Shown here: positions 1 through 57,556 of the stretch, piece after piece | How positions within the stretch are numbered: the first letter of the stretch is position 1 | How the letters are laid out: each line of letters starts with the position of its first letter | Origin: a virus | Taxonomy: Duplodnaviria > Caudoviricetes | Length of the DNA: 57,556 nucleotides | IMG/VR virus record: IMGVR_UViG_3300044210_000034 | Span: 1-57,556 of that record | Direction: 5' to 3' (one strand) | Made by a program: the position numbers and the translations under genes | Notes under the pieces: generated by a model | Told to the model about the DNA's origin: nothing | The model's input: the letters and a program-made list of their open reading frames with translations, nothing else | The model's database searches: none

Positions 1-381
1 CGCATCGTGGCGCCGGACGTGGTGATGCTCCCCCGGGGCTTCATCCTTGGTCCGCTCGAAGGGATCGGACCGCTCGCGCTGATCTTGTCGGTGAGGGAAG
101 ACACCGGCCAGCGCGTGACGACGTTCGTCGCCGCCGAGATCCTGCACGACCTGATCGGAATCGACGAGGACGGCGACGAGGCGCTCGACCTGAGCAAGGT
201 CGACCCCGAGCAGTTCTGCCGGGCCGTGGCGCTCGGCTGGCCCAACGAGTGGGCCGAGGACGGCGCGGGCTGGCACATCGCCAACGGGATGACCGCCGCA
301 CTGCTGGCGGGCATCCCGTGGCACCAGGTGCGGACGCGCTGCGAGCGAGCCGCCGCACTCAGCACGGCAGCGCTCAACTGA
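1..381 (+). CDS. Hypothetical protein, 5'-truncated; allele of 55857-56261
   Basis: Same protein (APDVVMLPRGFILGPLEG...LSTAALN) as the intact copy near the right end. Confidence 0.75.
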   Translation, partial: RIVAPDVVMLPRGFILGPLEGIGPLALILSVREDTGQRVTTFVAAEILHDLIGIDEDGDEALDLSKVDPEQFCRAVALGWPNEWAEDGAGWHIANGMTAALLAGIPWHQVRTRCERAAALSTAALN

Positions 382-441
382 ACGACCGCCCGGCACCCGC
401 CGGGCGGCGATGCAAGGCCACCGGAAAGTGAGAACAGCATC

Positions 442-1125
442 ATGACCGAGCAGTCCACCATCGTGGCGACCGCCCCCACCGAGGGCGTCGTCGTCCCGAC
501 CAACTACTCGCTGAAGGTCGACGGCTTCCTCGCCGCCGACCCCGACCCCGGCTACGTCTACGGCTCGACGATCACCGGCACGTTCGAGGGGTTCGTCACC
601 GGGCGTGGCGTCAGCCGCGACTACAAGGGTGACACCGACCTCGACTACACGATCGAGGTCAAGACCTTCGACGCCGCCGACGCGGCGGGCGAGCCCCCGC
701 TCGTGACGGCCGACAAGGTGACCCTGAGCTTCGACGGCCGGTTCGAGCTGGCGGGCGACCCCGGCTTCCTGCACGGCCGCCCGGTCAGCGGCCGGTTCGT
801 CGCCCGGGTCGACGGCGACCGGACGTCGAGCGACTACTCGGGCGTGCGCCGGGTCTACCGGATCATGGTCACCGAGATCGAGGTCGAGGGCGTCGTGCGC
901 AAGCCCGTGGCGCCGGTCTCGACCGGCCTGCCCGGCGTGGTGGCGACCCTGCTCGGCCGCCCGACCCCGGCCGCGACCGAGCCCGAGCCGACCGGCCGGG
1001 TGCGCCGGGCGTGGAAGTCCTTCCGGCGCGGTCCGTTCGGGTGGGTGCCGATGTGGCTCGGCTTCATCGCCGCGTGGGTCGGCATCACCCTGACCCTGCG
1101 CGCGGTGGTGGCGATCCTCGGCTGA
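442..1125 (+). CDS. Membrane-anchored protein with two tandem ~60 aa repeats and a C-terminal TM helix; allele A
   Basis: Internal repeat DG-x5-DPG-x3-G-x3-G-x-F twice; hydrophobic C-terminus; homolog at 56324-57034. Confidence 0.8.
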   Translation: MTEQSTIVATAPTEGVVVPTNYSLKVDGFLAADPDPGYVYGSTITGTFEGFVTGRGVSRDYKGDTDLDYTIEVKTFDAADAAGEPPLVTADKVTLSFDGRFELAGDPGFLHGRPVSGRFVARVDGDRTSSDYSGVRRVYRIMVTEIEVEGVVRKPVAPVSTGLPGVVATLLGRPTPAATEPEPTGRVRRAWKSFRRGPFGWVPMWLGFIAAWVGITLTLRAVVAILG

Positions 1126-1142
1126 CCGCCCGCCGATCCGAC

Positions 1143-1182
1143 CACTGCACCCCCTTGAGTGTATGCTCAAGGGGGTGTAGTG
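1143..1182 (+). promoter_or_regulatory. Palindromic promoter/operator
   Basis: CACTGCACCCCCTTGAG-TGTATG-CTCAAGGGGGTGTAGTG; TTGAGT-17-TAGTGT. Confidence 0.85.
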
Positions 1183-1226
1183 TTTCTACTGACCGCGACG
1201 TCCCCGAGTCCGACGAGGTGACCCCG

Positions 1227-1538
1227 ATGCACGACCTGCCCCGGCGCGCGGCCCGCGCGCCGCACGACGTCATGAAGAGCCACGCGCTCGCGCGTTGGCT
1301 GAACGAGCACGACCCCACCGACGACCCCTCGGGCTGGCAGATCAGCGACACCGGCACGGTGTGGACCGAGGTCGCCGCCCACCCGTCCACCGCCCGCGAG
1401 CGCCGCGCCCACGTGGTCGCCCTCGCCCGGGGGCTCTACCTGCTGGCCCTGCCGCTGTGCGACGTCGAGGGGCTCTACTCGCCCGAGGACTTCGCCACCC
1501 TGGCGGGGGCTCTCGCCTACTGGGAGGGGCGGGCGTGA
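1227..1538 (+). CDS. Hypothetical protein; allele of 57136-57453
   Basis: GAGGTG SD before ATG; conserved in the second copy. Confidence 0.75.
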   Translation: MHDLPRRAARAPHDVMKSHALARWLNEHDPTDDPSGWQISDTGTVWTEVAAHPSTARERRAHVVALARGLYLLALPLCDVEGLYSPEDFATLAGALAYWEGRA

Positions 1539-1732
1539 TGGACCACATCGACCGCCCGGCCGGGCAGGTGAGCCGGTTCGAGCACGACGTGCGCCGCGCG
1601 CTCGCCGCGCTGATCGACGGCGGCACCGTCGCCGACGCCCGTAGCGAGATCCACATCTGGCACGACCCGGCCGAGAAGCGCCGGGCCATCCGCCTCGTCG
1701 AGCAGCTCGCCGAGGCAGTGAAAGGATCATGA
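1538..1732 (+). CDS. Small hypothetical protein
   Basis: GGAGG upstream, coupled start and stop; start repeated at the contig end. Confidence 0.6.
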   Translation: MDHIDRPAGQVSRFEHDVRRALAALIDGGTVADARSEIHIWHDPAEKRRAIRLVEQLAEAVKGS

Positions 1733-2790: not shown

Positions 2791-3206
2791 TGCAGACCTT
2801 CCTGCCCGAGCCGGACTTCGCCGCGTCGGCCGCCGTGCTCGACCGGCAGCGGCTCGGCAAGCAGCGGGTCGAGGTGATGCAGCTTCTCGGCGCGCTGACC
2901 GGCCAGCGCGCCGGGTGGGCCAGCCACCCGGCCGCCCGGATGTGGCGCGGCCACGAGGTCGCGCTCGCCCGGTACGGGCTGGCGGTGGTCGCCGAGTGGA
3001 CGTCGCGCGGCTACCGCGACACCTGCGGGCCGAAGATCGAGGCGCTCGCCGCCGGGCTGGCCGACGCCGGTCCGCCCCGGTGGCTCGGTGACGAGGCGTT
3101 CCACCTCGCGCACCGCTCGAACCTGGTCCGCAAGCTGCCGGGGCACTACGCCCCGCTGTGGCCCGGCGTGCCCGACGACCTGCCCTACGTCTGGCCCGAG
3201 CCCTGA
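2790..3206 (+). CDS. MSMEG_6728-family / pyrimidine-dimer DNA glycosylase (DenV-like) protein
   Basis: MQTFLP...LDRQRLGKQRVE...HPAARMWRG...HRSNLVRKLP..Y...YVWP. Confidence 0.8.
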   Translation: MQTFLPEPDFAASAAVLDRQRLGKQRVEVMQLLGALTGQRAGWASHPAARMWRGHEVALARYGLAVVAEWTSRGYRDTCGPKIEALAAGLADAGPPRWLGDEAFHLAHRSNLVRKLPGHYAPLWPGVPDDLPYVWPEP

Positions 3207-3214
3207 CCGGCCGG

Positions 3215-3256
3215 ATACTCCACCCCCTTGCGCAGATGCTCAAGGGGGTGTAGTAT
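3215..3256 (+). promoter_or_regulatory. Palindromic promoter/operator
   Basis: ATACTCCACCCCCTTGCG-CAGATG-CTCAAGGGGGTGTAGTAT. Confidence 0.85.
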
Positions 3257-3307
3257 TGTCTCATCAGCGAGGGGGAACGGCCCCCGAGCCGGGCGAAGGG
3301 CACCGAG

Positions 3308-3625
3308 ATGACCGCGATCACCACCGACACGACGTTCGTCACCGAGACCCTGGTCACCGACACCGTGACCTACGAGATCATCGGCCGGACCGCCAAGACG
3401 ATCACCATTCGGACCACGATCAGCGGCGACGTGGTGAAGAGCCAGGACCCGGGCAGCGGCTACCCGCAGGTGTGGTGCGAGGCGATCAGCGACCCCGAGG
3501 GCGCGACCTACACCCTGCGGCTGCGCAAGGACGGCACGTACCGGCGGGCCACGTGGGCGAACGCGCTGCGCCCGGCGGCCGTGATCGACGGCAAGCCGGT
3601 CAGCTACACCGACTACTCGTTCTGA
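3308..3625 (+). CDS. Hypothetical protein, single-gene cassette
   Basis: GAAGGG SD; bounded by palindromes on both sides. Confidence 0.75.
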   Translation: MTAITTDTTFVTETLVTDTVTYEIIGRTAKTITIRTTISGDVVKSQDPGSGYPQVWCEAISDPEGATYTLRLRKDGTYRRATWANALRPAAVIDGKPVSYTDYSF

Positions 3626-3632
3626 CCGCCAC

Positions 3633-3672
3633 TACTGCACCCCCTTGACATCATGCTCAAGGGGGTGCAGTA
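3633..3672 (+). promoter_or_regulatory. Palindromic promoter/operator
   Basis: TACTGCACCCCCTTGACATCATGCTCAAGGGGGTGCAGTA; consensus TTGACA -35. Confidence 0.85.
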
Positions 3673-3713
3673 TTGAGACATCAGCAGGGCACCACCGAGA
3701 GAAGGGCACCGAG

Positions 3714-3974
3714 ATGAGCGCGCAGGCCGAGACCAGCCCCGAGCGGTTCGTCATCTTCGAGATCGAGGGCGGCTGCACCTGCTGCCAGCCCGGCGCCCGC
3801 GAGACGGTCCTGCCGTCCGGCTGGCGCGAGCGGGCCGAGGACGCCGGGATCTTCTCGGTCGCCGAGCTGCTGGCCGCCCCGCACGGGGTCGACCCGGCCC
3901 GGATCGTGCAGGTCGCCGCGTGCAACGCGCCCTTCGACCGCGCGCACCTGGACTGGCTGCGCTCGCTCGCCTGA
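3714..3974 (+). CDS. Hypothetical protein with a CTCC motif
   Basis: Same leader (AAGGGCACCGAGATG) as the 3308 gene. Confidence 0.7.
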   Translation: MSAQAETSPERFVIFEIEGGCTCCQPGARETVLPSGWRERAEDAGIFSVAELLAAPHGVDPARIVQVAACNAPFDRAHLDWLRSLA

Positions 3975-4046
3975 GCCCCTCCCGGCCCGGCCGCCCCACC
4001 CGGCGGCCGGGCCGACCCGTACCGAGCACCACCGGAGGAACCGACC

Positions 4047-4565
4047 ATGACCACGACCACCGACCTGCCCGCGCCGACCGAGACCGCCGTGCAGGCGTAC
4101 GACACCGCCGTCGAGGCGCTGCGCCTGGTGGACGCCCTGACCGGCGGCCGGGACGGCAACGGGACCGACGTCGACACCGACGCCCACGACGCCGCCACCG
4201 TGGCCCTGCGCGCCTCGCTGGCCGCCTTCCTGGTCATCACCTGCCCCGGCGGCGAGCGCGACTACTACGCCGCCGCCGCGACCGAGCTGTACGCCGACAT
4301 GTTCGGCGAGGGCCGGGGCGTCGCCGAGTCGCTCGGGGTCTTCCTGACCCTCGGCTTCCAGCACGCCGACCCGTTCCGGGCCGGGCACCAGCCGTACACC
4401 GAGGACGCCGTTCGGCTCGCCGCAGGCCCGGCCGTGCGCGGCGCGTGCACCTGCGGGTGGTACGGCCCGGACCGGCCCGACATCGAGCACGCCGAGGCGG
4501 ACGCGCTCGGGCACGCCGAGTGGGAGATCGTCCCGCCCGTCATGATGGTGCCCACCGGCAAGTAA
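4047..4565 (+). CDS. Hypothetical protein with C-terminal CxCGW...H motif
   Basis: GGAGG SD; GACTCGWYG...H suggests a Zn ribbon. Confidence 0.7.
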   Translation: MTTTTDLPAPTETAVQAYDTAVEALRLVDALTGGRDGNGTDVDTDAHDAATVALRASLAAFLVITCPGGERDYYAAAATELYADMFGEGRGVAESLGVFLTLGFQHADPFRAGHQPYTEDAVRLAAGPAVRGACTCGWYGPDRPDIEHAEADALGHAEWEIVPPVMMVPTGK

Positions 4566-4574
4566 GAAATCTGC

Positions 4575-4612
4575 CGCACCCGCTTGACAGGATGCTAAAG
4601 GGGGTGCAGTAT
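4575..4612 (+). promoter_or_regulatory. Strong SigA-type promoter in a degenerate palindrome, upstream of the RNA locus
   Basis: TTGACA (4584-4589)-17 bp-CAGTAT (4607-4612); predicted TSS near 4619. Confidence 0.8.
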
Positions 4613-4618
4613 AGAGAT

Positions 4619-4907
4619 GTAAGGAAGAGCAAGGGACAACAGAACAGAGACCGAGGGCGCACAGCCTCTCCGGACCGGATGAGGAACCCTAAGCCGAAAG
4701 GTACGGGCGCGGCGGAACCGAAAGGCCGCACGGTAAAGCGCACGAACACTGGCGACGCACGTCCCCTGACGCCTTGGCGGGCACCTATGGAGCCTTCCTC
4801 ACGGGCTATACGGATCGGCCACGAACCAGGGTCGGCAATCTAGAAGTCGGCCGCGACGCTGTGAGAACGGCCCCCCTCGGTTTCTTCTGCCCCTTGCTCT
4901 TCCTTAC
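4619..4907 (+). ncRNA. Putative large structured ncRNA, domain 1 (~290 nt)
   Basis: Perfect 17 bp terminal helix 4619-4635/4891-4907 extended by further pairings; two GAAA tetraloops; CCUAAG/UACGG receptor-like motif; no credible ORF. Confidence 0.75.
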
Positions 4908-4971
4908 CGAGAACCTCCACCGGGTGCGGCGTGACCGCGACCCCGCCGCCCCCGGTGGTACCAACGTCCGA

Positions 4972-5069
4972 CCGTCGCCAAGGTGGAGCAATGCCAGCGG
5001 GGCGCACCAAGACCCGGGCCGCAACCCGGTGAGGCACGAGGGGTTCGAGTCCCCACCACGCAGCGACGG
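4972..5069 (+). ncRNA. tRNA-like module with a T-arm, not a canonical cloverleaf
   Basis: GGGG-TTCGAGT-CCCC (5040-5054), closing stem CCGTCGC/GCGACGG, inner TGCC/GGCA and CCGGG/CCCGG stems. Confidence 0.55.
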
Positions 5070-5076
5070 AAAGGCA

Positions 5077-5180
5077 GGGGGCAGGCGTATGGAGCGCGGG
5101 CGGGCCGGGTGCGCACCGGCCGCTCGATCCGGTCGAGACCGGAGCCCCCACTACCCGGCCGGAAACCACCGGACCGGACC
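5077..5180 (+). ncRNA. Third structured RNA segment (multi-hairpin)
   Basis: GGGGGC/GCCCCC closing stem, hairpin TCCGGT-CGAG-ACCGGA, GGCCGG...CCGGCC hairpin. Confidence 0.45.
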
Positions 5181-5198
5181 GACAAGGGAAGGTAACGC

Positions 5199-5420
5199 AT
5201 GACCTCCACCACACGAGCCCGCAGGCGCGGCATCACCGCCGCCCTGGTCGGGCTCTTCTCGTTGCTGGCGGTGTTCCTCGCCACGGGGGACGCCCGCGCC
5301 GCGAGCAACGCCGGTGCCTGCGTCGATCACTGCTGGACGCAGACGAACGCCTCGGTGTTCTCGCCCGAGGCGACCCGGATCAACAGCACGATGGACTACC
5401 AGTGCGACGTCGGCTGCTGA
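5199..5420 (+). CDS. Secreted peptide, possibly truncated
   Basis: GGAAGG SD; basic N-region, hydrophobic core, ARA cleavage motif; stop codon lies inside the 115 bp duplicated segment. Confidence 0.6.
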   Translation: MTSTTRARRRGITAALVGLFSLLAVFLATGDARAASNAGACVDHCWTQTNASVFSPEATRINSTMDYQCDVGC

Positions 5421-5526
5421 CCTACGTGCCGCTCGACGACGGCGCGGCGGTCGCGGCGGCGTGACGTCATGACGCTGTGGGTCTGCTCGGCGTGCTCGAC
5501 GCGGTACAGCGTCGGCGCGCCGAGCT
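5412..5526 (+). repeat. 115 bp exact copy of 24209-24323
   Basis: Base-for-base identity from GGCTGCTGACCTACG to GCGCCGAGCT. Confidence 0.95.
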
Positions 5527-5634
5527 CGGCACCCCGGCCGACGTGCCGGTGAGCCCGCCCGGCAAGAGCTGACCGACCCTCCCGCAGTCGGTCATGGCGC
5601 CCCGGCCCACAGCACCACGGGCCGGGGCGCTGCC

Positions 5635-5678
5635 ATGCTCAAGGGGGTGTTGCGCCGGTACTCAAGGGGGTGTAGTAT
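5635..5678 (+). promoter_or_regulatory. Promoter with two direct half-sites; leaderless transcript
   Basis: CTCAAGGGGGTG twice; TTGCGC-17-TAGTAT with ATG 6 nt downstream. Confidence 0.75.
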
Positions 5679-5684
5679 CGGAGC

Positions 5685-5882
5685 ATGACGACGACGCAGG
5701 GCACCGAGGGCAACCCGTTCGTGATCGTGTTCGCCTGCGAGATCTGCGAAGAGATCTTCAAGGCCGAGCCCGAGCGGTCGCTGTGCGGCGACGTCACCAC
5801 CGCGTGCGAGACCTGCGTGCGCGAGCACGTGGCACTGTGCGCCGACTGCACCGCCCAAGAGCGCGACGCGCTCGACGAGTGA
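5685..5882 (+). CDS. Small Zn-binding protein
   Basis: CEIC, CETC, H, CADC motifs. Confidence 0.7.
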   Translation: MTTTQGTEGNPFVIVFACEICEEIFKAEPERSLCGDVTTACETCVREHVALCADCTAQERDALDE

Positions 5883-5892
5883 GGAAGGGACC

Positions 5893-6141
5893 ATGACCAC
5901 CGGAAACCCCACACCCACCCTCGACGACGCGCAGGCCGCGCTGATCGAGGCGCTGACGGTGTTCGAGGACAACGAGCGCACCACCGAGACCGGCCACGAC
6001 ATCGGGGGTGTCGAGGACGGCGGGGCCGCCCGGCACGACCGCGTGGTGATGTTCACGCTGTCGATGCCGGACGGCACGAGCAAGACGTTCGCCGCGACGA
6101 TTACGGAGGAAGAGGACGAGTGGAACCCCGACGAGAACTGA
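5893..6141 (+). CDS. Small acidic hypothetical protein
   Basis: GAGGAAGGGA SD. Confidence 0.7.
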   Translation: MTTGNPTPTLDDAQAALIEALTVFEDNERTTETGHDIGGVEDGGAARHDRVVMFTLSMPDGTSKTFAATITEEEDEWNPDEN

Positions 6142-6380
6142 CCGCGACCGCGCACAAGACCTGCGCGCACAAGGGCTGCACCCGCGAGGCGCTGATGGCG
6201 ATCAGTACCACCCGGGGCAAGACCCTGTTCAGCCGGGTGTTCTACGACGTGGCCGAGGCGCCGCCGAGCGCGAGCCCGTACTGCCACGAGGACGGCGTCG
6301 CCACGATCGTGGCGCTGATCTCTACCCTCGTGCCCGCCGACCAGCCCGGCCAGCCCGAGAGCCCGGCGGTGGCCCCGTGA
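6120..6380 (+). CDS. Hypothetical protein
   Basis: Fills the operon; CAHKGC and YC motifs. Confidence 0.55.
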   Translation: MEPRRELTATAHKTCAHKGCTREALMAISTTRGKTLFSRVFYDVAEAPPSASPYCHEDGVATIVALISTLVPADQPGQPESPAVAP

Positions 6381-6685
6381 GTCGCCCGGCGCGCCGGTCG
6401 GTGCCGCCCGTCGAGCTGGCGCGCGGCCCCGAGGCGATCCGGGCCGCGTACCGCTACGTCGTCAACGGCGACGCCCCGGCGGTGGTGCACACCCACGGGC
6501 AGCCCGGCCGCGCGATGACCGCGTTCGAGCTGTGGCAGTTCCTGCTCGACGTGCCGGACGGCGAGCAGCCGGTCGTCGCCGAGCTGGTCACCGACGGCGG
6601 CGGCACCCGCCGGTTCGAGGTGCGCGGCGCGTACGCGGCCGACGGCATCGGCGAGGCGGTCGTCGAGCTGGTCGAGCGCGGCTGA
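6377..6685 (+). CDS. Hypothetical protein
   Basis: GTGA coupling; ends before a palindrome. Confidence 0.65.
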   Translation: MSRPARRSVPPVELARGPEAIRAAYRYVVNGDAPAVVHTHGQPGRAMTAFELWQFLLDVPDGEQPVVAELVTDGGGTRRFEVRGAYAADGIGEAVVELVERG

Positions 6686-6703
6686 ACCGACCCGCCGAAC
6701 CGG

Positions 6704-6746
6704 ATACTCCACCCCCTTGCGCATCGTGCTCAAGGGGGTGTAGTAT
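6704..6746 (+). promoter_or_regulatory. Palindromic promoter/operator (7 bp spacer variant)
   Basis: ATACTCCACCCCCTTGCG-CATCGTG-CTCAAGGGGGTGTAGTAT. Confidence 0.85.
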
Positions 6747-6792
6747 TTCTTCTGTCAGGCACCGCAGGGCACGACCACCGGAGATGATCAGA

Positions 6793-7383
6793 ATGACCGC
6801 CGCCGACCTCGACTTCGACGACATCGAGACCTTCGTTCGCAAGCCCACCGACGGGCAGATGCAGTTCGTCACCGACCTGCGCAACGACTGGCAGCGCGCC
6901 GAGAACGAACTGTCGGTGCTGGCCGGTCGCCCCGCCCGCAACCCCGCATGGGCCGACCCGACCTCGTTCGAGCAGGCGTCCGAGATGATCGAGAACGGCA
7001 AGGCCGCCCGGACCGCCATCCGCGAGCAGCTCACGCAGGCGCGCCGTGCCGCCCGGCTCACCGCCGACGGCAGCCGCTACGACGTCACCGAGGGAATGTG
7101 GATCGTCGGCACCGTTGGCGCCGAGGGGTGCCGGATCTTCAAGGTGCAGCGCGCCGTCAACGGCTCGGGCCGCCTGTACGCCAAGGAACTGATCGACGAC
7201 TCGTTCGAGTACCTGCCCGGCGGGATCACCACCGTGGCGACCACCGCCCGCAAGATGGCGCTCGCCGAGGCGCAGGCGTTCGGTCGGCTCTACGGCACCT
7301 GCTGCAAGTGCGGCCGGACGCTGACCGACGAGGGCAGCATCGCGGCGGGCATCGGCCCGGTGTGCGCGGGCAAGGGCTGGTAG
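6793..7383 (+). CDS. DUF6011-like Zn-finger protein
   Basis: C-terminal CCKCGRTLTDEGSIAAGIGPVC. Confidence 0.75.
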   Translation: MTAADLDFDDIETFVRKPTDGQMQFVTDLRNDWQRAENELSVLAGRPARNPAWADPTSFEQASEMIENGKAARTAIREQLTQARRAARLTADGSRYDVTEGMWIVGTVGAEGCRIFKVQRAVNGSGRLYAKELIDDSFEYLPGGITTVATTARKMALAEAQAFGRLYGTCCKCGRTLTDEGSIAAGIGPVCAGKGW

Positions 7384-7394
7384 CCGGTGCGTTC

Positions 7395-7430
7395 GAGAGC
7401 CCCCGGGTGTCGACTCCCCCGGGGGCTCTC
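7395..7430 (+). terminator. Stem-loop terminator
   Basis: GAGAGCCCCCGGG...CCCGGGGGCTCTC just after the stop. Confidence 0.65.
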
Positions 7431-7565
7431 TCGCGCGAACCGGGCTCGCCCCGCTGGCAGGCAGGAACGCCCGGCGCCGACAGGGTATGCGCCACCCTTG
7501 CAGTAGTCAACCCCCTTGAGCTACATTCTGTGCATACCTACTGACCCCTACCAGGGAGGCTGACC

Positions 7566-7997
7566 GTGGTCCGCGTGCCACCGACCGACACCGAGCTGCA
7601 CGAGTTCTACGCGAGCTACCCCACGGCCTACGCGCAGTGCCGGACGTGGAAGCACGGCCCCGAGCGGCCCTACACCGTCGAGCGCCCGAACGGGCGCAAC
7701 GGCGTCATCGAGGTGACCCGGGTCTGCCAGTGCGGGCGCCTGGTCACCCGGGTGTTCACCGCCGCCTACCAGCGGTTGCCCGAGCAGACCCGGGTCGTTT
7801 ACCCCTCGAACCCGCGCTACCTCGCGCTGCCGGGCACCGGCGGCGTCGACCGCGACCTGATCGCCCGCCGGGCGATCGAGGGCGACATCGAGCAGATCGA
7901 GGCGGCCACCGCCGCCCGTCCGGCCGCCGCTCGGCGTGGTGGCCGGACGGGTAACGGCAACGGCTCGACCGGCCGGAAGCGTCCACGCAAGAGCTGA
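7566..7997 (+). CDS. Hypothetical protein with a basic tail
   Basis: GGGAGG SD; C..H..CQCG motif. Confidence 0.7.
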   Translation: MVRVPPTDTELHEFYASYPTAYAQCRTWKHGPERPYTVERPNGRNGVIEVTRVCQCGRLVTRVFTAAYQRLPEQTRVVYPSNPRYLALPGTGGVDRDLIARRAIEGDIEQIEAATAARPAAARRGGRTGNGNGSTGRKRPRKS

Positions 7998-8046
7998 CCC
8001 GGCGAGACCATGTGCTCGCCACCACCACCCCACCGGAGAGAAGATC

Positions 8047-23793: not shown

Positions 23794-24261
23794 ATGAGCG
23801 TCTACGTGGACCCCGCGAGCCTGCGGCTGTGGAACATGGGGCTCCGGGTCAACCGGGCCACCGCCACGCTGCCGCAGACCGCGACGGCGACCCTGTTCAC
23901 CGTCTCGGGTGGGCGAATCCTGCTCACCTCGCTGATCGGCAACGTGACGGTCGCGACCGGCGCGACCGCCACCAACCTGAAGATCACCTCGACGCCGAGC
24001 GCCGGTACGGCCGTGGACATCGCCACCAACGTGGCGGCGGCGTCCAAGGAAGTCGGGGCGCACTTCAGCGTCAACTGCGTGACCATCGGCGCCCTCACCG
24101 TCGGCAACGCCGGTGGGCTGGCGATGGCGGGCGGCTCGGGTGGCCTGATCATCCCGGCCGGTTCGATCCAGTGGACGACCGACGCCAACGACACCGGCTC
24201 GATCAAGTGGCTGCTGACCTACGTGCCGCTCGACGACGGCGCGGCGGTCGCGGCGGCGTGA
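23794..24261 (+). CDS. Virion protein (decoration-like)
   Basis: Thr/Ala/Gly-rich; C-terminal YVPLDDGA. Confidence 0.6.
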   Translation: MSVYVDPASLRLWNMGLRVNRATATLPQTATATLFTVSGGRILLTSLIGNVTVATGATATNLKITSTPSAGTAVDIATNVAAASKEVGAHFSVNCVTIGALTVGNAGGLAMAGGSGGLIIPAGSIQWTTDANDTGSIKWLLTYVPLDDGAAVAAA

Positions 24262-24323
24262 CGTCATGACGCTGTGGGTCTGCTCGGCGTGCTCGACGCG
24301 GTACAGCGTCGGCGCGCCGAGCT
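24209..24323 (+). repeat. Probable source copy of the 115 bp repeat at 5412-5526
   Basis: Exact identity; spans a natural gene junction here. Confidence 0.95.
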
Positions 24324-46282: not shown

Positions 46283-46289
46283 GGAACCG

Positions 46290-46535
46290 AGGGGAAAACC
46301 GCAGGTCAGAGGTAGGGGAAAAGATCAACAGCCCCGTGACCTGCGGTTTTCCCCTTTTCAAGATCGCTAAGAGCCCGAAAGGGAAAGAAGGGGAATCGGA
46401 CATGTCGGGCGAGGGGAAAACAGGGGAACGCCCTGACCTGCGGTTTTCCCCTACTTTCCCCTTGTTTCCCCCCCCCCGGGGAAAGAGGGGGAAGACCCCC
46501 CGGGGGCCGTAGGCCCGGGGGTTTCCCCTTCCCCC
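46290..46535. other. Candidate replication origin
   Basis: AGGGGAAAACCGCAGGTCA at 46290 and its reverse complement at 46337 and 46434; many GGGGAA/TTCCCC tracts; directly after Prim-Pol. Confidence 0.6.
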
Positions 46536-46635
46536 ACCGGTCCGAGTGCGGGTACTTCCTCAAGATCACAGAACTACTCAAGCCGGCGTGGTAATGTATA
46601 GGGTGCAGTAAGTCCGACGAGAGGGAGATCATCCG

Positions 46636-55856: not shown

Positions 55857-56261
55857 ATGGACCTGCCCGACATCACCCCGCGCATCGTGGCGCCGGACGT
55901 GGTGATGCTCCCCCGGGGCTTCATCCTTGGTCCGCTCGAAGGGATCGGACCGCTCGCGCTGATCTTGTCGGTGAGGGAAGACACCGGCCAGCGCGTGACG
56001 ACGTTCATCGCCGCCGAGATCCTGCACCCGCTCATCGAGACGGACGCGGACGGCGGCGAGGGGCTCGACCTGACGCAGGTCGACCCCGACCTGTTCTGCC
56101 GGGCGACGGTCGTCGGCTGGCCGGACGAGTGGGCACCGGGCGGACCCGGCCAGGTGCTCGCCAACGGGATGGCGGCGGCGCTGCTCGCCGGTACCCCGTG
56201 GCACCAGGTGCGGGCGAGGGCCGAGCGCCTCGCTGCACTCAGCACGGCATCGCTCAACTGA
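55857..56261 (+). CDS. Hypothetical protein, allele B (intact)
   Basis: AAGGAGG SD; homolog of 1-381. Confidence 0.75.
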   Translation: MDLPDITPRIVAPDVVMLPRGFILGPLEGIGPLALILSVREDTGQRVTTFIAAEILHPLIETDADGGEGLDLTQVDPDLFCRATVVGWPDEWAPGGPGQVLANGMAAALLAGTPWHQVRARAERLAALSTASLN

Positions 56262-56323
56262 TCACCCGCGCCCGGCGACCGCCGGGCGGTCACGCAAGGC
56301 CACCGGAAAGCGAGAACAGCATC

Positions 56324-57034
56324 ATGACCGAGCAGTCCACCACCGTGGCGACCCGGACCCCGGACGCCACCGAGGGCAGCATCGTCGACACCACCTACTC
56401 GATCAAGGCCGACGGGTACATCACCACGGCCGCCGACCCCGGCTTCCGCTACGGGCAGACCGTCACCGGCACGTTCGAGGGCCGGGTCAGCGGCACCGGC
56501 ATCAGCCGCCGGTGGGATAACAAGGCCGCCCGCGACTACACCCTGACGATCGACTCGATCGCGGTCGACGGCGAGCCCGGCGCTCCCGACGGCATCGCGG
56601 CCGACGAGGTGGTCGTCTCCCTCGACGGCCGGTTCGAGCTGCCGACCGACCCCGCCTACACCTACGGGCAGACCCTCGCCGGGACCTTCACCGGCCGCAT
56701 CGACGGCGAGAGCGTCCGGGCGGGCTACAACAAGACGACCCGGGTCTACCGGGTCAGCGTCACCGAGCTGGTCGGCGAGGGCATCGACGCCTCGTTCATC
56801 CGGCCCGAGTCGGTCACCGACGCGGCCGACGACGCACTCGCCAAGCTCGACCAGCTCGCCAAGGCCGTGATCCGGGTGCCCGCGCCCGAGCCGGTCGAGA
56901 CCAGCCGGGTGCGCCGGGCGTGGAAGTCCTTCCGGCGCGGCCCGTTCGGCTGGGTGCCGATGTGGTTCGGCTTCATCGCGCTGTGGGTCGGCATCACCTT
57001 GACCCTGCGCGCGGTGGCGCTGGTCCTCGGCTGA
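56324..57034 (+). CDS. Membrane-anchored two-repeat protein, allele B
   Basis: Homolog of 442-1125 with near-identical TM tail. Confidence 0.8.
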   Translation: MTEQSTTVATRTPDATEGSIVDTTYSIKADGYITTAADPGFRYGQTVTGTFEGRVSGTGISRRWDNKAARDYTLTIDSIAVDGEPGAPDGIAADEVVVSLDGRFELPTDPAYTYGQTLAGTFTGRIDGESVRAGYNKTTRVYRVSVTELVGEGIDASFIRPESVTDAADDALAKLDQLAKAVIRVPAPEPVETSRVRRAWKSFRRGPFGWVPMWFGFIALWVGITLTLRAVALVLG

Positions 57035-57051
57035 CCGCTCACCGATCCGGG

Positions 57052-57091
57052 CACTACACCCCCTTGAGTGAATGCTCAAGGGGGTGTAGTG
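57052..57091 (+). promoter_or_regulatory. Palindromic promoter/operator
   Basis: CACTACACCCCCTTGAG-TGAATG-CTCAAGGGGGTGTAGTG, perfect 17 bp arms. Confidence 0.85.
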
Positions 57092-57135
57092 TTTCTACTG
57101 ACCGCGACGCCCCCGAGTCCGACGAGGTGACCCCG

Positions 57136-57453
57136 ATGCACGAACTGCCCCGTCGCGCGGCTCGAAAGCCGCACGACGTCCTGAAGAGCCGCGCGCTGGC
57201 GCGCTGGCTGAACGAGCACGACCCCACCGACGACCCGGTGGGCTGGCAGATCAGCGACACCGGCACGGTGTGGACCGAGGCGGTGGCCTTCCCGGGCCGC
57301 TCGGTCGAGCACCGGGCGCAGGTGATCGCCATCGAGCCCGGCTTCTACCTGCTCGCCGTCCCGCTGTGCGACGTCGAGGGGCTCTACACCCCGCAGGACG
57401 TCACCACGCTGGCCGCCGCCAGCGCCTACCTCGAAGGAAGGAACACCCCGTGA
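57136..57453 (+). CDS. Hypothetical protein, allele B
   Basis: Homolog of 1227-1538. Confidence 0.75.
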   Translation: MHELPRRAARKPHDVLKSRALARWLNEHDPTDDPVGWQISDTGTVWTEAVAFPGRSVEHRAQVIAIEPGFYLLAVPLCDVEGLYTPQDVTTLAAASAYLEGRNTP

Positions 57454-57556
57454 CCGGGTTCGACCACATCGACCGCCCCGCCGGGCAGGTGAGCCGGTTC
57501 GAGCACGACGTGCGCCGCGCGCTCGCCGCGCTGATCGACGGCGGCACCGTCGCCGA

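What the first reader, a model, noticed from the sequence alone, without database searches (positions are those of the whole stretch)
4619..4907. Large structured RNA of unrecognised family behind a consensus promoter
Seen: TTGACA-17-CAGTAT places the TSS near 4619, the first base of a perfect 17 bp helix (4619-4635 with 4891-4907). The helix continues through AGAGACCGAGGG/CCCTCGGTTTCT and CACAGC/GCTGTG and closes a multibranch core with TGAGGAA/TTCCTCA, two GAAA tetraloops and CCUAAG-CC-GAAA-GG-UACGG. Established: CCUAAG/UAUGG is the 11-nt GAAA tetraloop receptor of large folded RNAs; this differs by one base. Inference: a tertiary-folded phage RNA (ribozyme, scaffold, Ms1/6S-like RNAP decoy or anti-defence RNA). 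I cannot assign a family.
Basis: partly seen in the sequence, partly recalled or inferred. Interest (0 to 1): 0.87.

Follow-up and report, generated by a model that had tools for sequence, protein, structure and literature searches.

The report
Orphan structured RNA domain in actinophage
A 289-base non-coding stretch just behind a strong early phage promoter is closed by a long helix and carries a textbook RNA docking motif, so it is probably a new structured phage RNA, but its overall fold and its job remain unproven.

Summary
The sequence features are real. The stretch lies in a 57.5-kb, 71% GC virus record, probably an actinophage. TTGACA-17-CAGTAT is one of 11 copies of the phage's palindromic promoter/operator element. 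It is the only copy followed by about 580 nt without a gene.

The outer helices (17, 4 and 12 bp) are certain in the folding model. The 12-bp helix matches a 50-nt 5' hairpin that 10 related loci have at the same place, with two compensatory pair changes.

The CCUAAG-CC-GAAA-GG-UACGG hairpin is far beyond chance. Two confirmed phage group I introns carry the same motif as their P4-J4/5-P5 part. A near-identical relative from another metagenome changes its G.U pair to A.C.

The roughly 200-nt interior has no further support. It folds no better than shuffles (z +0.97). No diverged homologue was found, so covariation could not be tested. It matches no Rfam family, and there is no RT, Ro60, tRNA or conserved ORF.

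Downstream in the same gap lie two tRNA-like modules with four compensatory changes.

Verdict: probably a lineage-specific structured RNA payload on a conserved 5' hairpin of a modular early non-coding transcript. Its function is unknown.

The parts
4574..4620 (+). Copy of the phage's palindromic promoter/operator element. -35 TTGACA at 4584-4589, -10 CAGTAT at 4607-4612.
   Evidence: One of 11 copies of family D1. The promoter pattern has 6 matches against 0 in shuffles. It is conserved after the homologous upstream gene in 11 of 13 related loci.
4619..4635 (+). P1 5' strand. It forms a perfect 17-bp helix with 4891-4907.
   Evidence: Read; mean pair probability 1.00. Absent from relatives.
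4891..4907 (+). P1 3' strand.
4640..4643 (+). P1a: CAGA paired with UCUG at 4886-4889.
   Evidence: Mean pair probability 0.97.
4646..4657 (+). P2 5' strand, paired with 4874-4885. This is the homologue of the stem of the 50-nt 5' hairpin found in relatives.
   Evidence: Mean pair probability 0.97. The 5' arm aligns to the relatives' GTACAGAGAACGGGACGGGG. Two pairs changed on both sides (A-U to C-G, G-C to A-U) and one changed G-C to G-U, read.
4874..4885 (+). P2 3' strand.
4660..4665 (+). Candidate P3: CACAGC with GCUGUG at 4858-4863.
   Evidence: Complementary, but mean probability is 0.01. Enforcing it costs 4 kcal/mol.
4680..4686 (+). Candidate helix UGAGGAA with UUCCUCA at 4795-4801.
   Evidence: Complementary, mean probability 0.02. 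It competes with the local hairpin 4665-4684, which has probability 0.96. It appears on its own once P3 is enforced.
4687..4707 (+). Hairpin CCCUAAG-CC-GAAA-GG-UACGGG: an 11-nt-receptor-like internal loop capped by a GAAA tetraloop.
   Evidence: Unique in the window, 0 of 100 shuffles. Pair probability 0.61-0.91. The same motif is P4-J4/5-P5 of group I introns L028 and L029. The X2 relative changes G4693 to A and U4702 to C.
4712..4729 (+). Candidate second hairpin GCGG-AA-CC-GAAA-GG-CCGC.
   Evidence: Read. Mean probability only 0.17-0.19. The X2 change at 4710 lies just outside it.
4914..4962 (+). Empty 'platform' hairpin. It is the closing stem of the relatives' roughly 145-nt module B, with the interior reduced to 10 nt.
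   Evidence: The covariance model of module B hits here with E 0.002 and 107 model positions deleted. It gives no hit inside 4619-4907.
4966..5075 (+). Module D: a cloverleaf-like RNA with T-arm GGGGUUCGAGUCCCC (5040-5054) inside a closing stem.
   Evidence: 87% identical to L010. Compensatory changes with L010. Not called as a tRNA.
5077..5149 (+). Module E: a tRNA-like RNA with a 6-bp acceptor-like stem, a long central arm and a T-like arm at 5128-5143. It ends ACUA here, ACCA in L010 and GCCA in L016.
   Evidence: The L016 counterpart gives a weak tRNA-Sec match (19.7 bits, E 0.44).
5199..5420 (+). First gene after the non-coding stretch: 73 aa with a signal-peptide-like N-terminus. It is a short form of a longer protein in relatives.
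   Evidence: GC3 0.93. The homologous longer ORF follows the RNA modules in L006, L012, L014 and L015.

Best explanation
The stretch is the 5'-terminal domain of an early, roughly 580-nt non-coding transcript of a high-GC phage, probably an actinophage.

Transcription from one of the phage's 11 conserved promoter elements is inferred to start at or next to the first base of a long, nearly continuous helix of 17 + 4 + 12 bp. That helix buries the 5' end. The inner 12-bp part is an old 5' hairpin shared with related phages. In this lineage its loop carries a roughly 200-nt payload and its base has gained a 17-bp extension.

The payload contains at least one genuine tertiary-contact module: an 11-nt-type receptor capped by a GAAA loop, the same unit that group I introns use as P5.

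I think it most likely acts as a stable, independently folded trans-acting RNA, either binding a protein or associating with itself. The helix would protect it from 5'-end-dependent decay. Processing at the downstream tRNA-like modules may set it free.

Shown: the sequence features, the non-coding character, the conserved promoter, the homology and compensation of the 12-bp helix, and the non-chance nature of the motif.

Inferred: transcription, the start site, stability, the global fold and the function.
For: - Promoter family: 6 matches against 0 in shuffles; 11 copies. From, at the other copies that face a plus-strand gene the ORF starts within about 45 nt or overlaps the element. Here the gap is 579 nt.
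- Non-coding: GC3 is flat at 0.57-0.67 in six frames against 0.93-0.98 in the neighbouring genes, and GC is 63% against about 71%. No high-GC3 ORF lies in 4566-5198. The open frame has no protein homologue in 5.8 billion proteins of 40-130 aa.
- Helices: P1, P1a and P2 have probability 0.97-1.00; z -4.78.
- Hairpin platform: all 10 related loci shown have a 50-nt hairpin right after the same promoter. Its 5' arm aligns to the window's P2, with 2 pairs changed on both sides.
- Motif: unique in the window, 0 of 100 shuffles. The pattern found 7 viral loci. Two of them are Rfam group I introns in which the motif aligns to P4-J4/5-P5.
- Wobble position: at the G.U position, the 7 loci have G/U in 6 (three distinct sequence types) and A/C in 1 (L030), and never a Watson-Crick combination. 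The X2 relative from another study changes exactly these two bases, G.U to A.C, among 4 changes in 151 nt.
- The locus makes RNA: in L008 and L016 the modules end at a terminator-like hairpin followed by the next promoter. Modules D and E show 4 of 54 pairs changed on both sides, 2 changed on one side and none broken, between the window and L010.
Against: - The interior alone is not more stable than shuffles (z +0.97).
- The minus strand folds equally well.
- No diverged homologue of 4636-4890 turned up. BLAST matched it in 0 of 13 related loci. It was absent from the 4 whole related virus records searched. Exact-pattern scans of viral contigs and of genome contigs found nothing. The fold therefore has no comparative support.
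- The G.U to A.C change rests on one 151-nt contig of depth 2. Both changes are also synonymous third positions of a 54-codon ORF, 4679-4843.
- No RNA data exist.
- Relatives do without this payload, so it may be dispensable.
Confidence: 0.45

Rival explanations
1. A passenger with no function of its own. A fragment of another structured RNA, for example the P4-P5 part of a group I intron or a piece of a former RNA gene cluster, was captured in the loop of the conserved 5' hairpin. It is simply tolerated there. Only the hairpin matters.
For: - The payload is missing from all 10 related loci, which keep a 13-nt loop instead.
- The interior is no more stable than shuffles.
- The only clearly non-chance part is a 26-nt motif shared with group I introns.
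- The neighbouring platform hairpin shows the reverse case, with the payload present in relatives and absent here. Gain and loss of inserts is therefore common at this locus.
Against: - The helix was extended by a perfect 17 bp around the insert, which looks like adaptation rather than decay.
- The G.U to A.C change keeps wobble geometry in the motif.
- The promoter has the full TTGACA, which only 2 of the 11 copies have.
- A-rich loops are kept in a 71% GC genome.
Confidence: 0.25
2. A cis-acting 5' leader of the downstream gene (5199). The terminal helix stabilises the mRNA, or the domain regulates read-through or translation of the secreted-protein gene.
For: - In L006, L012, L014 and L015 the RNA modules run without a terminator-like hairpin into the homologue of gene 5199.
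- The window has no obvious terminator between 4907 and 5199. The two terminator-like sites in 3000-8000 are both on the minus strand.
Against: - In L008 and L016 the modules are followed by a terminator-like hairpin and a new promoter. In L010 they are followed by a terminator-like hairpin alone. The homologue of gene 5199 follows them in none of the three, so they stand alone as RNA.
- The window's gene is a 73-aa stump of the longer protein.
- No riboswitch or leader family matched.
Confidence: 0.15
3. A DNA-level element. The roughly 46-nt imperfect inverted repeat would be the ends of a small non-autonomous transposon, or a protein-binding or cruciform site.
For: - The arms are an inverted repeat among the longest in the window, and it holds a perfect 17-bp run (I7).
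- Both strands fold equally well.
- The element is present or absent between relatives.
Against: - The genome holds no second copy.
- No target-site duplication flanks it (AGAGAT / CGAGAA).
- No exact match was found in the viral or genome collections.
- The inner arm is homologous to a hairpin that relatives already have, so the arms are not imported ends.
- P2 contains a G.U pair, and the candidate hairpin 4829-4851 contains two. These pairs form only in plus-strand RNA.
Confidence: 0.07
4. It belongs to a known family that the models miss, such as a degenerate group I intron, or it encodes the 54-aa basic peptide (4679-4843).
For: - The P4-J4/5-P5-like motif.
- Rfam finds nothing in L024 and L030 even at E<=0.1, although they carry the same motif. 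If they are introns, the model can miss members.
- Two of the 3 X2 changes inside the ORF are synonymous.
Against: - No Intron_gpI match at E<=10.
- The strand that would pair with GAGG lies 88 nt after the hairpin instead of right after it, which is not group I topology.
- The element does not interrupt a gene.
- ORF GC3 is 0.65, against at least 0.93 for real genes, and there is no protein homologue.
Confidence: 0.05

Closest known systems
P4-J4/5-P5 region of phage group I introns (Rfam RF00028)
   Same: GAGGAA-N-CCUAAG-NN-GAAA-NN-UAUGG is the same 26-nt unit. In L028 and L029 it aligns to the P4 5' strand, J4/5 and a P5 hairpin that carries the 11-nt receptor under a GAAA loop. The hairpin of L024-L027 differs from the window's at 1 of 19 bases.
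   Different: - The window has UACGG, not UAUGG.
- The partner of GAGG lies 88 nt further on.
- No P7/P3/P8 core was recognised.
- No Intron_gpI match at E<=10.
- It lies at a transcript's 5' end in a non-coding gap, not inside a gene.
Large phage- and bacteria-associated RNAs of unknown function (GOLLD, ROOL, raiA, OLE, HEARO), as held in Rfam
   Same: Long, non-coding, promoter-driven, phage-borne, and using GNRA-loop/receptor-type contacts. That those families use such contacts is recalled, not tested here.
   Different: No sequence or structure match to any of 4227 Rfam models. It is smaller (289 nt). It is known from one phage plus one near-identical partial relative.
5'-terminal stem-loops that stabilise bacterial and phage transcripts (recalled examples: ompA leader, T4 gene 32)
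   Same: The helix begins at the predicted first transcribed base. Relatives have a plain 50-nt hairpin at the same place, with compensatory changes.
   Different: Such stabilisers are simple hairpins. This one encloses a 200-nt payload with a tertiary motif.
Viral decoy RNAs closed by a terminal stem (adenovirus VA RNA; recalled) and bacterial Y RNAs (YrlA; PMC4201824, passages read)
   Same: A long stem formed by the 5' and 3' ends, plus a variable structured module. tRNA-like modules lie in the same transcript.
   Different: - No GNCGAAN0-1G motif.
- tRNA-like arms are in normal order, not T-acceptor-D order.
- No Ro60/TROVE gene in the record.
- No binding partner is known.

Membership tests
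Any Rfam 15 family (6S, Ms1, RNase P, GOLLD, ROOL, raiA, group I/II introns, riboswitches, tRNA, tmRNA) | Covariance-model score at or above the family's gathering score | tested here: not met
   0 matches in the whole window at gathering score. In 4400-5400 at E<=10 there were only 5 weak hits (11-21 bits). One lies wholly inside the element (DUF805b, 11 bits) and one overlaps it on the minus strand (IRES_Bip, 12 bits). ARAGORN found 0 genes.
11-nt GAAA tetraloop receptor (definition recalled: CCUAAG...UAUGG) | CCUAAG opposite UAUGG in a helix, with a G.U wobble next to the AA platform | tested here: inconclusive
   CCUAAG/UACGG is 10 of 11 bases; the odd base is the one recalled to be bulged. 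At the wobble position only G/U or A/C occur, across the 7 pattern hits, the window and X2. Docking of a GAAA loop was not testable.
Group I intron | P4-J4/5-P5 unit | tested here: met
   The same 26-nt motif aligns to P4-J4/5-P5 in L028 and L029.
Group I intron | Complete core (P3-P9 with the P7 guanosine site) recognised by RF00028; P4 3' strand directly after P5; insertion in a gene | tested here: not met
   No RF00028 match at E<=10. The complement of GAGG lies 88 nt after the hairpin. The flanks are non-coding. Caveat: RF00028 also finds nothing in L024 and L030, which carry the motif.
Bacterial Y RNA (YrlA) | GNCGAAN0-1G near the 5' end; T, acceptor-like and D stem-loops in that order; encoded next to Ro60 (Rsr). 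Features as stated in PMC4201824, passages read. | tested here: not met
   No such motif in 4619-4660. No TROVE match in the record. Module D has normal tRNA arm order.
Retron msr-msd RNA | Inverted repeats flanking the RNA, next to a reverse transcriptase gene | tested here: not met
   The inverted repeat is present, but there is no RVT_1 match anywhere in the record.
Miniature inverted-repeat transposable element | Terminal inverted repeats, target-site duplication, several copies | tested here: not met
   Inverted arms are present. The flanks differ. It is a single copy in the record. Exact-pattern scans gave no match elsewhere.
Sigma-70-type (actinobacterial housekeeping) promoter | -35 and -10 hexamers at 16-18 nt, with a mapped start | tested here: inconclusive
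   TTGACA-17-CAGTAT is repeated 11 times as a conserved element and lies before genes. The -10 matches TATAAT at only 3 of 6 positions, so the generic scan does not call it. No start site has been mapped.

The most novel reading that the evidence does not exclude
This group of phages carries an early 'RNA cassette' locus. A few conserved stem platforms sit behind one strong promoter. Different lineages load them with different structured RNA payloads: here a 200-nt tetraloop-receptor domain on the first platform, in relatives a 145-nt domain on the second. These are punctuated by tRNA-like modules with encoded CCA ends that serve as processing signals. The payloads would be interchangeable trans-acting RNAs, for example decoys for host nucleic-acid-sensing or tRNA-targeting defences, or self-assembling RNAs built on loop-receptor contacts.
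Probability: 0.18. Interest if true: 0.85.

Novelty: new variant of a known kind. Interest (0 to 1): 0.58.

Why it matters
Phage-encoded structured RNAs are few, and almost none has a known function. Very little is described for high-GC phages such as this one: my two literature searches found nothing relevant.

This locus offers a compact, promoter-defined RNA that can be synthesised. It has a recognisable tertiary module and natural 'with payload' and 'without payload' versions in related phages, which is a ready-made comparison for function tests.

If the modular reading holds, it would show that phages shuffle structured RNA domains on fixed stem platforms much as they shuffle protein genes. 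It would also give tRNA-like elements a punctuation role in a phage non-coding transcript.

Tried and rejected
**Homologue hunting**
- blastn 'distant' of 4560-5200 against 50,697 phage records: no match.
- Upstream protein against viral contigs: none.
- Alignment A1 of 19 homologues: 8 metagenome loci, 4 viral loci, and none in genome contigs.
- BLAST of the gap against 13 loci: promoter only, plus modules D/E in L010.
- Four whole related records: promoter only. L013 is not held and was not searched. L013 is a chimeric contig.
- Exact patterns from the interior: none in viral contigs or genome contigs.
- Module D pattern: none in viral contigs.

**Sequencing runs**
- Two holders, both DNA; no RNA holder listed.
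- X1 is probably the source sample.

**Tests of specific ideas**
- Similarity between the payload and the relatives' module B: local alignment is not above shuffles (56 of 300 and 8 of 300 shuffles score as high), and the covariance model gives no hit. Rejected.
- Module B alignment of 6 sequences: only 1 pair changed on both sides, too little divergence to be useful.
- YrlA, retron, transposon and group I membership: see the membership tests.
- Literature: two searches on non-coding RNAs of actinobacteriophages and Streptomyces phages gave nothing relevant. I saw the listings only.

**Tools and sources not available or not used**
- Supplements of PMC4201824 (YrlA lists and models) were not seen.
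- No structure or complex prediction was run, because the question concerns RNA.

Full report
**Setting**

The window is a complete-looking 57,556-base virus record with about 71% GC. It has a terminase, a portal, a ClpP-type protease, an HK97-type capsid protein, a WhiB-like protein, a primase-polymerase and a helicase. The nearest cultured relative by portal protein is Streptomyces phage Dagobah, at 46.6% identity over 73% of the protein. An actinobacterial host is therefore an inference.

**Observation**

- The 289 nt fold far better than shuffles (z -4.78).
- The signal comes from the outer arms only. P1 (17 bp), a 4-bp CAGA/UCUG step and P2 (12 bp) have pair probabilities of 0.97-1.00.
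- The interior 4665-4861 alone gives z +0.97.
- The minus strand folds equally well.
- A fold containing both inner helices is only 4 kcal/mol above the minimum. It is possible but unsupported.

**Promoter**

TTGACA-17-CAGTAT is part of a 47-nt palindromic element (consensus roughly CTnCACCCCCTTGAg-N7-CTCAAGGGGGTGyAGTAT) that occurs 11 times in the record. The promoter pattern has 6 matches against none in 100 shuffles.

I compared the element positions with the high-GC3 ORFs. At the other copies that face a plus-strand gene, the ORF starts within about 45 nt or overlaps the element. This copy is followed by 579 nt without a gene. The generic sigma-70 scan does not call it. The start at 4619 is inferred.

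**Non-coding character**

- GC3 is 0.57-0.67 in all six frames of 4619-4907, and 0.63-0.69 over 4566-5198. The flanking genes have 0.98 and 0.93.
- The element has 63% GC.
- The open plus-strand frame (74 aa) has no homologue among proteins of 40-130 aa in a database of 5.8 billion.
- A 54-codon ORF (4679-4843) exists, but its GC3 is 0.65.

**Relatives**

The upstream 172-aa protein has 18 homologues. Twelve loci were fetched with their alignment.

- In 11 of the 13 loci searched (those twelve plus L005, fetched), the promoter follows the gene. In 0 of 13 is there any match to 4619-4907.
- Four whole related virus records gave the same result.
- Instead, all 10 loci shown have a 50-nt hairpin just after the promoter. 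Its 5' arm, GTACAGAGAACGGGACGGGG, aligns with the window's GAACAGAGACCGAGGGCG.
- Reading the pairs: two pairs differ on both sides (A-U to C-G, G-C to A-U) and one differs on one side (G-C to G-U).

So P2 is an old, conserved 5' hairpin. The window lineage has a roughly 200-nt insert in its loop and an extra 17-bp helix at its base.

The next hairpin, 4914-4962, shows the mirror case. A covariance model of the relatives' roughly 145-nt module B matches it only as the closing stem, with 107 model positions replaced by 10 nt (E 0.002). The model does not match the window's payload.

In L008 and L016 the modules end at a terminator-like hairpin followed by the next promoter, and in L010 at a terminator-like hairpin alone. 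In L006, L012, L014 and L015 they run into the homologue of gene 5199.

**The motif**

CCUAAG-CC-GAAA-GG-UACGG occurs once in the window and never in 100 shuffles.

- Scanning viral contigs with GAGGAANCCTAARNNGAAANNYAYGG gave 7 loci, all of low GC.
- Of the 4 that I tested, L028 and L029 are Rfam group I introns (93.8 and 64.3 bits). In them the motif aligns to the P4 5' strand, J4/5 and the P5 hairpin.
- L024 and L030 gave no Rfam match even at E<=0.1. L025-L027 repeat L024 and were not tested.
- The pattern allowed all four base combinations at the position of the receptor's G.U pair. The 7 loci show G/U six times (three distinct sequence types) and A/C once (L030), and no Watson-Crick pair.
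- An independent freshwater metagenome run (X2) holds a 151-nt contig covering 4600-4750 with four changes: 4657 G>A, 4693 G>A, 4702 T>C and 4710 C>G. The two middle changes turn exactly this G.U into A.C.

That pattern is what a wobble-geometry constraint predicts; the isostery of G.U and protonated A.C is recalled knowledge. The caveats are that the contig has depth 2, and that both changes are also synonymous in the 54-codon ORF. The third base of UACGG differs from the canonical UAUGG. I recall that this base is bulged out in the solved receptor, but I did not test this.

**Known families**

- No Rfam family matches at gathering score or meaningfully at E<=10.
- RF00028 specifically gives nothing at E<=10.
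- The group I topology is not met, because the partner of GAGG lies 88 nt after the hairpin.
- The record has no reverse transcriptase and no Ro60/TROVE protein.
- The YrlA features given in PMC4201824 (passages read) are absent.
- The transposon reading lacks target duplications. There is only one copy in the record.

**Rest of the gap**

Window 4966-5160 is 87% identical to L010. It folds with L010 into two modules: 54 pairs, of which 4 changed on both sides, 2 changed on one side and none are broken.

- Module D is cloverleaf-like, with a GGGGUUCGAGUCCCC T-arm inside a closing stem.
- Module E has a 6-bp acceptor-like stem, a long central arm and a T-like arm. It ends ACCA in L010, GCCA in L016 and ACUA in the window.
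- Neither module is called as a tRNA. The L016 and L010 counterparts give only weak tRNA-Sec scores (E 0.44 and 0.93).

This shows that the locus encodes RNAs under structural selection. It also suggests, by analogy with tRNA punctuation (recalled), that these modules could be processing signals.

**Judgement**

The element is real, non-coding, promoter-proximal and built on a conserved hairpin, and it contains one bona fide tertiary-interaction module. Whether the whole payload is a folded, functional RNA is open.

I put 0.45 on a functional, trans-acting structured RNA domain. I put 0.25 on a tolerated passenger fragment, 0.15 on a cis-acting leader, 0.07 on a DNA-level element, and 0.05 on a missed known family or a small ORF.

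Noticed in passing
window 4966-5149; L010 2797-2981; L016 about 3892-3982: Two tRNA-like modules lie in the same non-coding gap, with compensatory changes between phages. Module E ends in an encoded CCA in 2 of the 3 phages. tRNA finders do not call them.
   Followed up: partly
L006 3655-3800 and the same module in L007, L008, L012, L015, L016: A roughly 145-nt structured module closed by two copies of the palindrome CCACCGGTGG. L016 has a different, longer inner hairpin. There is no Rfam match. The window keeps only the closing stem.
   Followed up: partly
L006 about 3807-3902, also L007, L010, L012, L015: A roughly 100-nt module closed by CACTACGGyAGGGG / CCCTGCCGTAGC with an inner CGAAA loop. 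It is conserved between loci that differ in their other modules and is absent from the window.
   Followed up: no
window, 11 sites (1145, 2287, 3218, 3635, 4574, 5640, 6708, 10542, 49846, 55781, 57054): A 47-nt palindromic promoter/operator-like element. Some copies also match the promoter pattern on the minus strand, so they may be divergent promoters, or repressor sites and hairpin terminators.
   Followed up: partly
window 46283-46635: A non-coding stretch after the primase-polymerase gene. It has three copies of GGGGAAAACCGCAGGTCAG (one direct, two inverted) and many GGGGAA/TTCCCC runs. It looks like an iteron-type replication origin.
   Followed up: no
window 5412-5526 and 24209-24323: A 115-nt repeat that is 100% identical. 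The first copy starts at the end of the truncated 73-aa gene. Contigs of run X1 branch here (depth rises, with loose ends at 5412). This could be a real duplication or an assembly join.
   Followed up: partly
window 1-1635 and 55881-57556: The two ends of the record are direct repeats that are only 75-96% identical. They may be diverged terminal duplications, or two strains merged in the assembly.
   Followed up: no
L024-L027 and L030 (viral contigs, 35-37% GC): These loci carry the group I P4-P5-like motif. In L024, L026 and L027 it is followed by an ORF that looks like a GIY-YIG homing endonuclease (my reading). L025 ends just after the motif, and I made no such reading for L030. Rfam finds no intron in L024 or L030 even at E<=0.1.
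   Followed up: partly
L013 (metagenome contig, 1696 nt): A chimeric contig. The phage gene breaks off at residue 104 and continues as a lower-GC membrane-protein gene.
   Followed up: no
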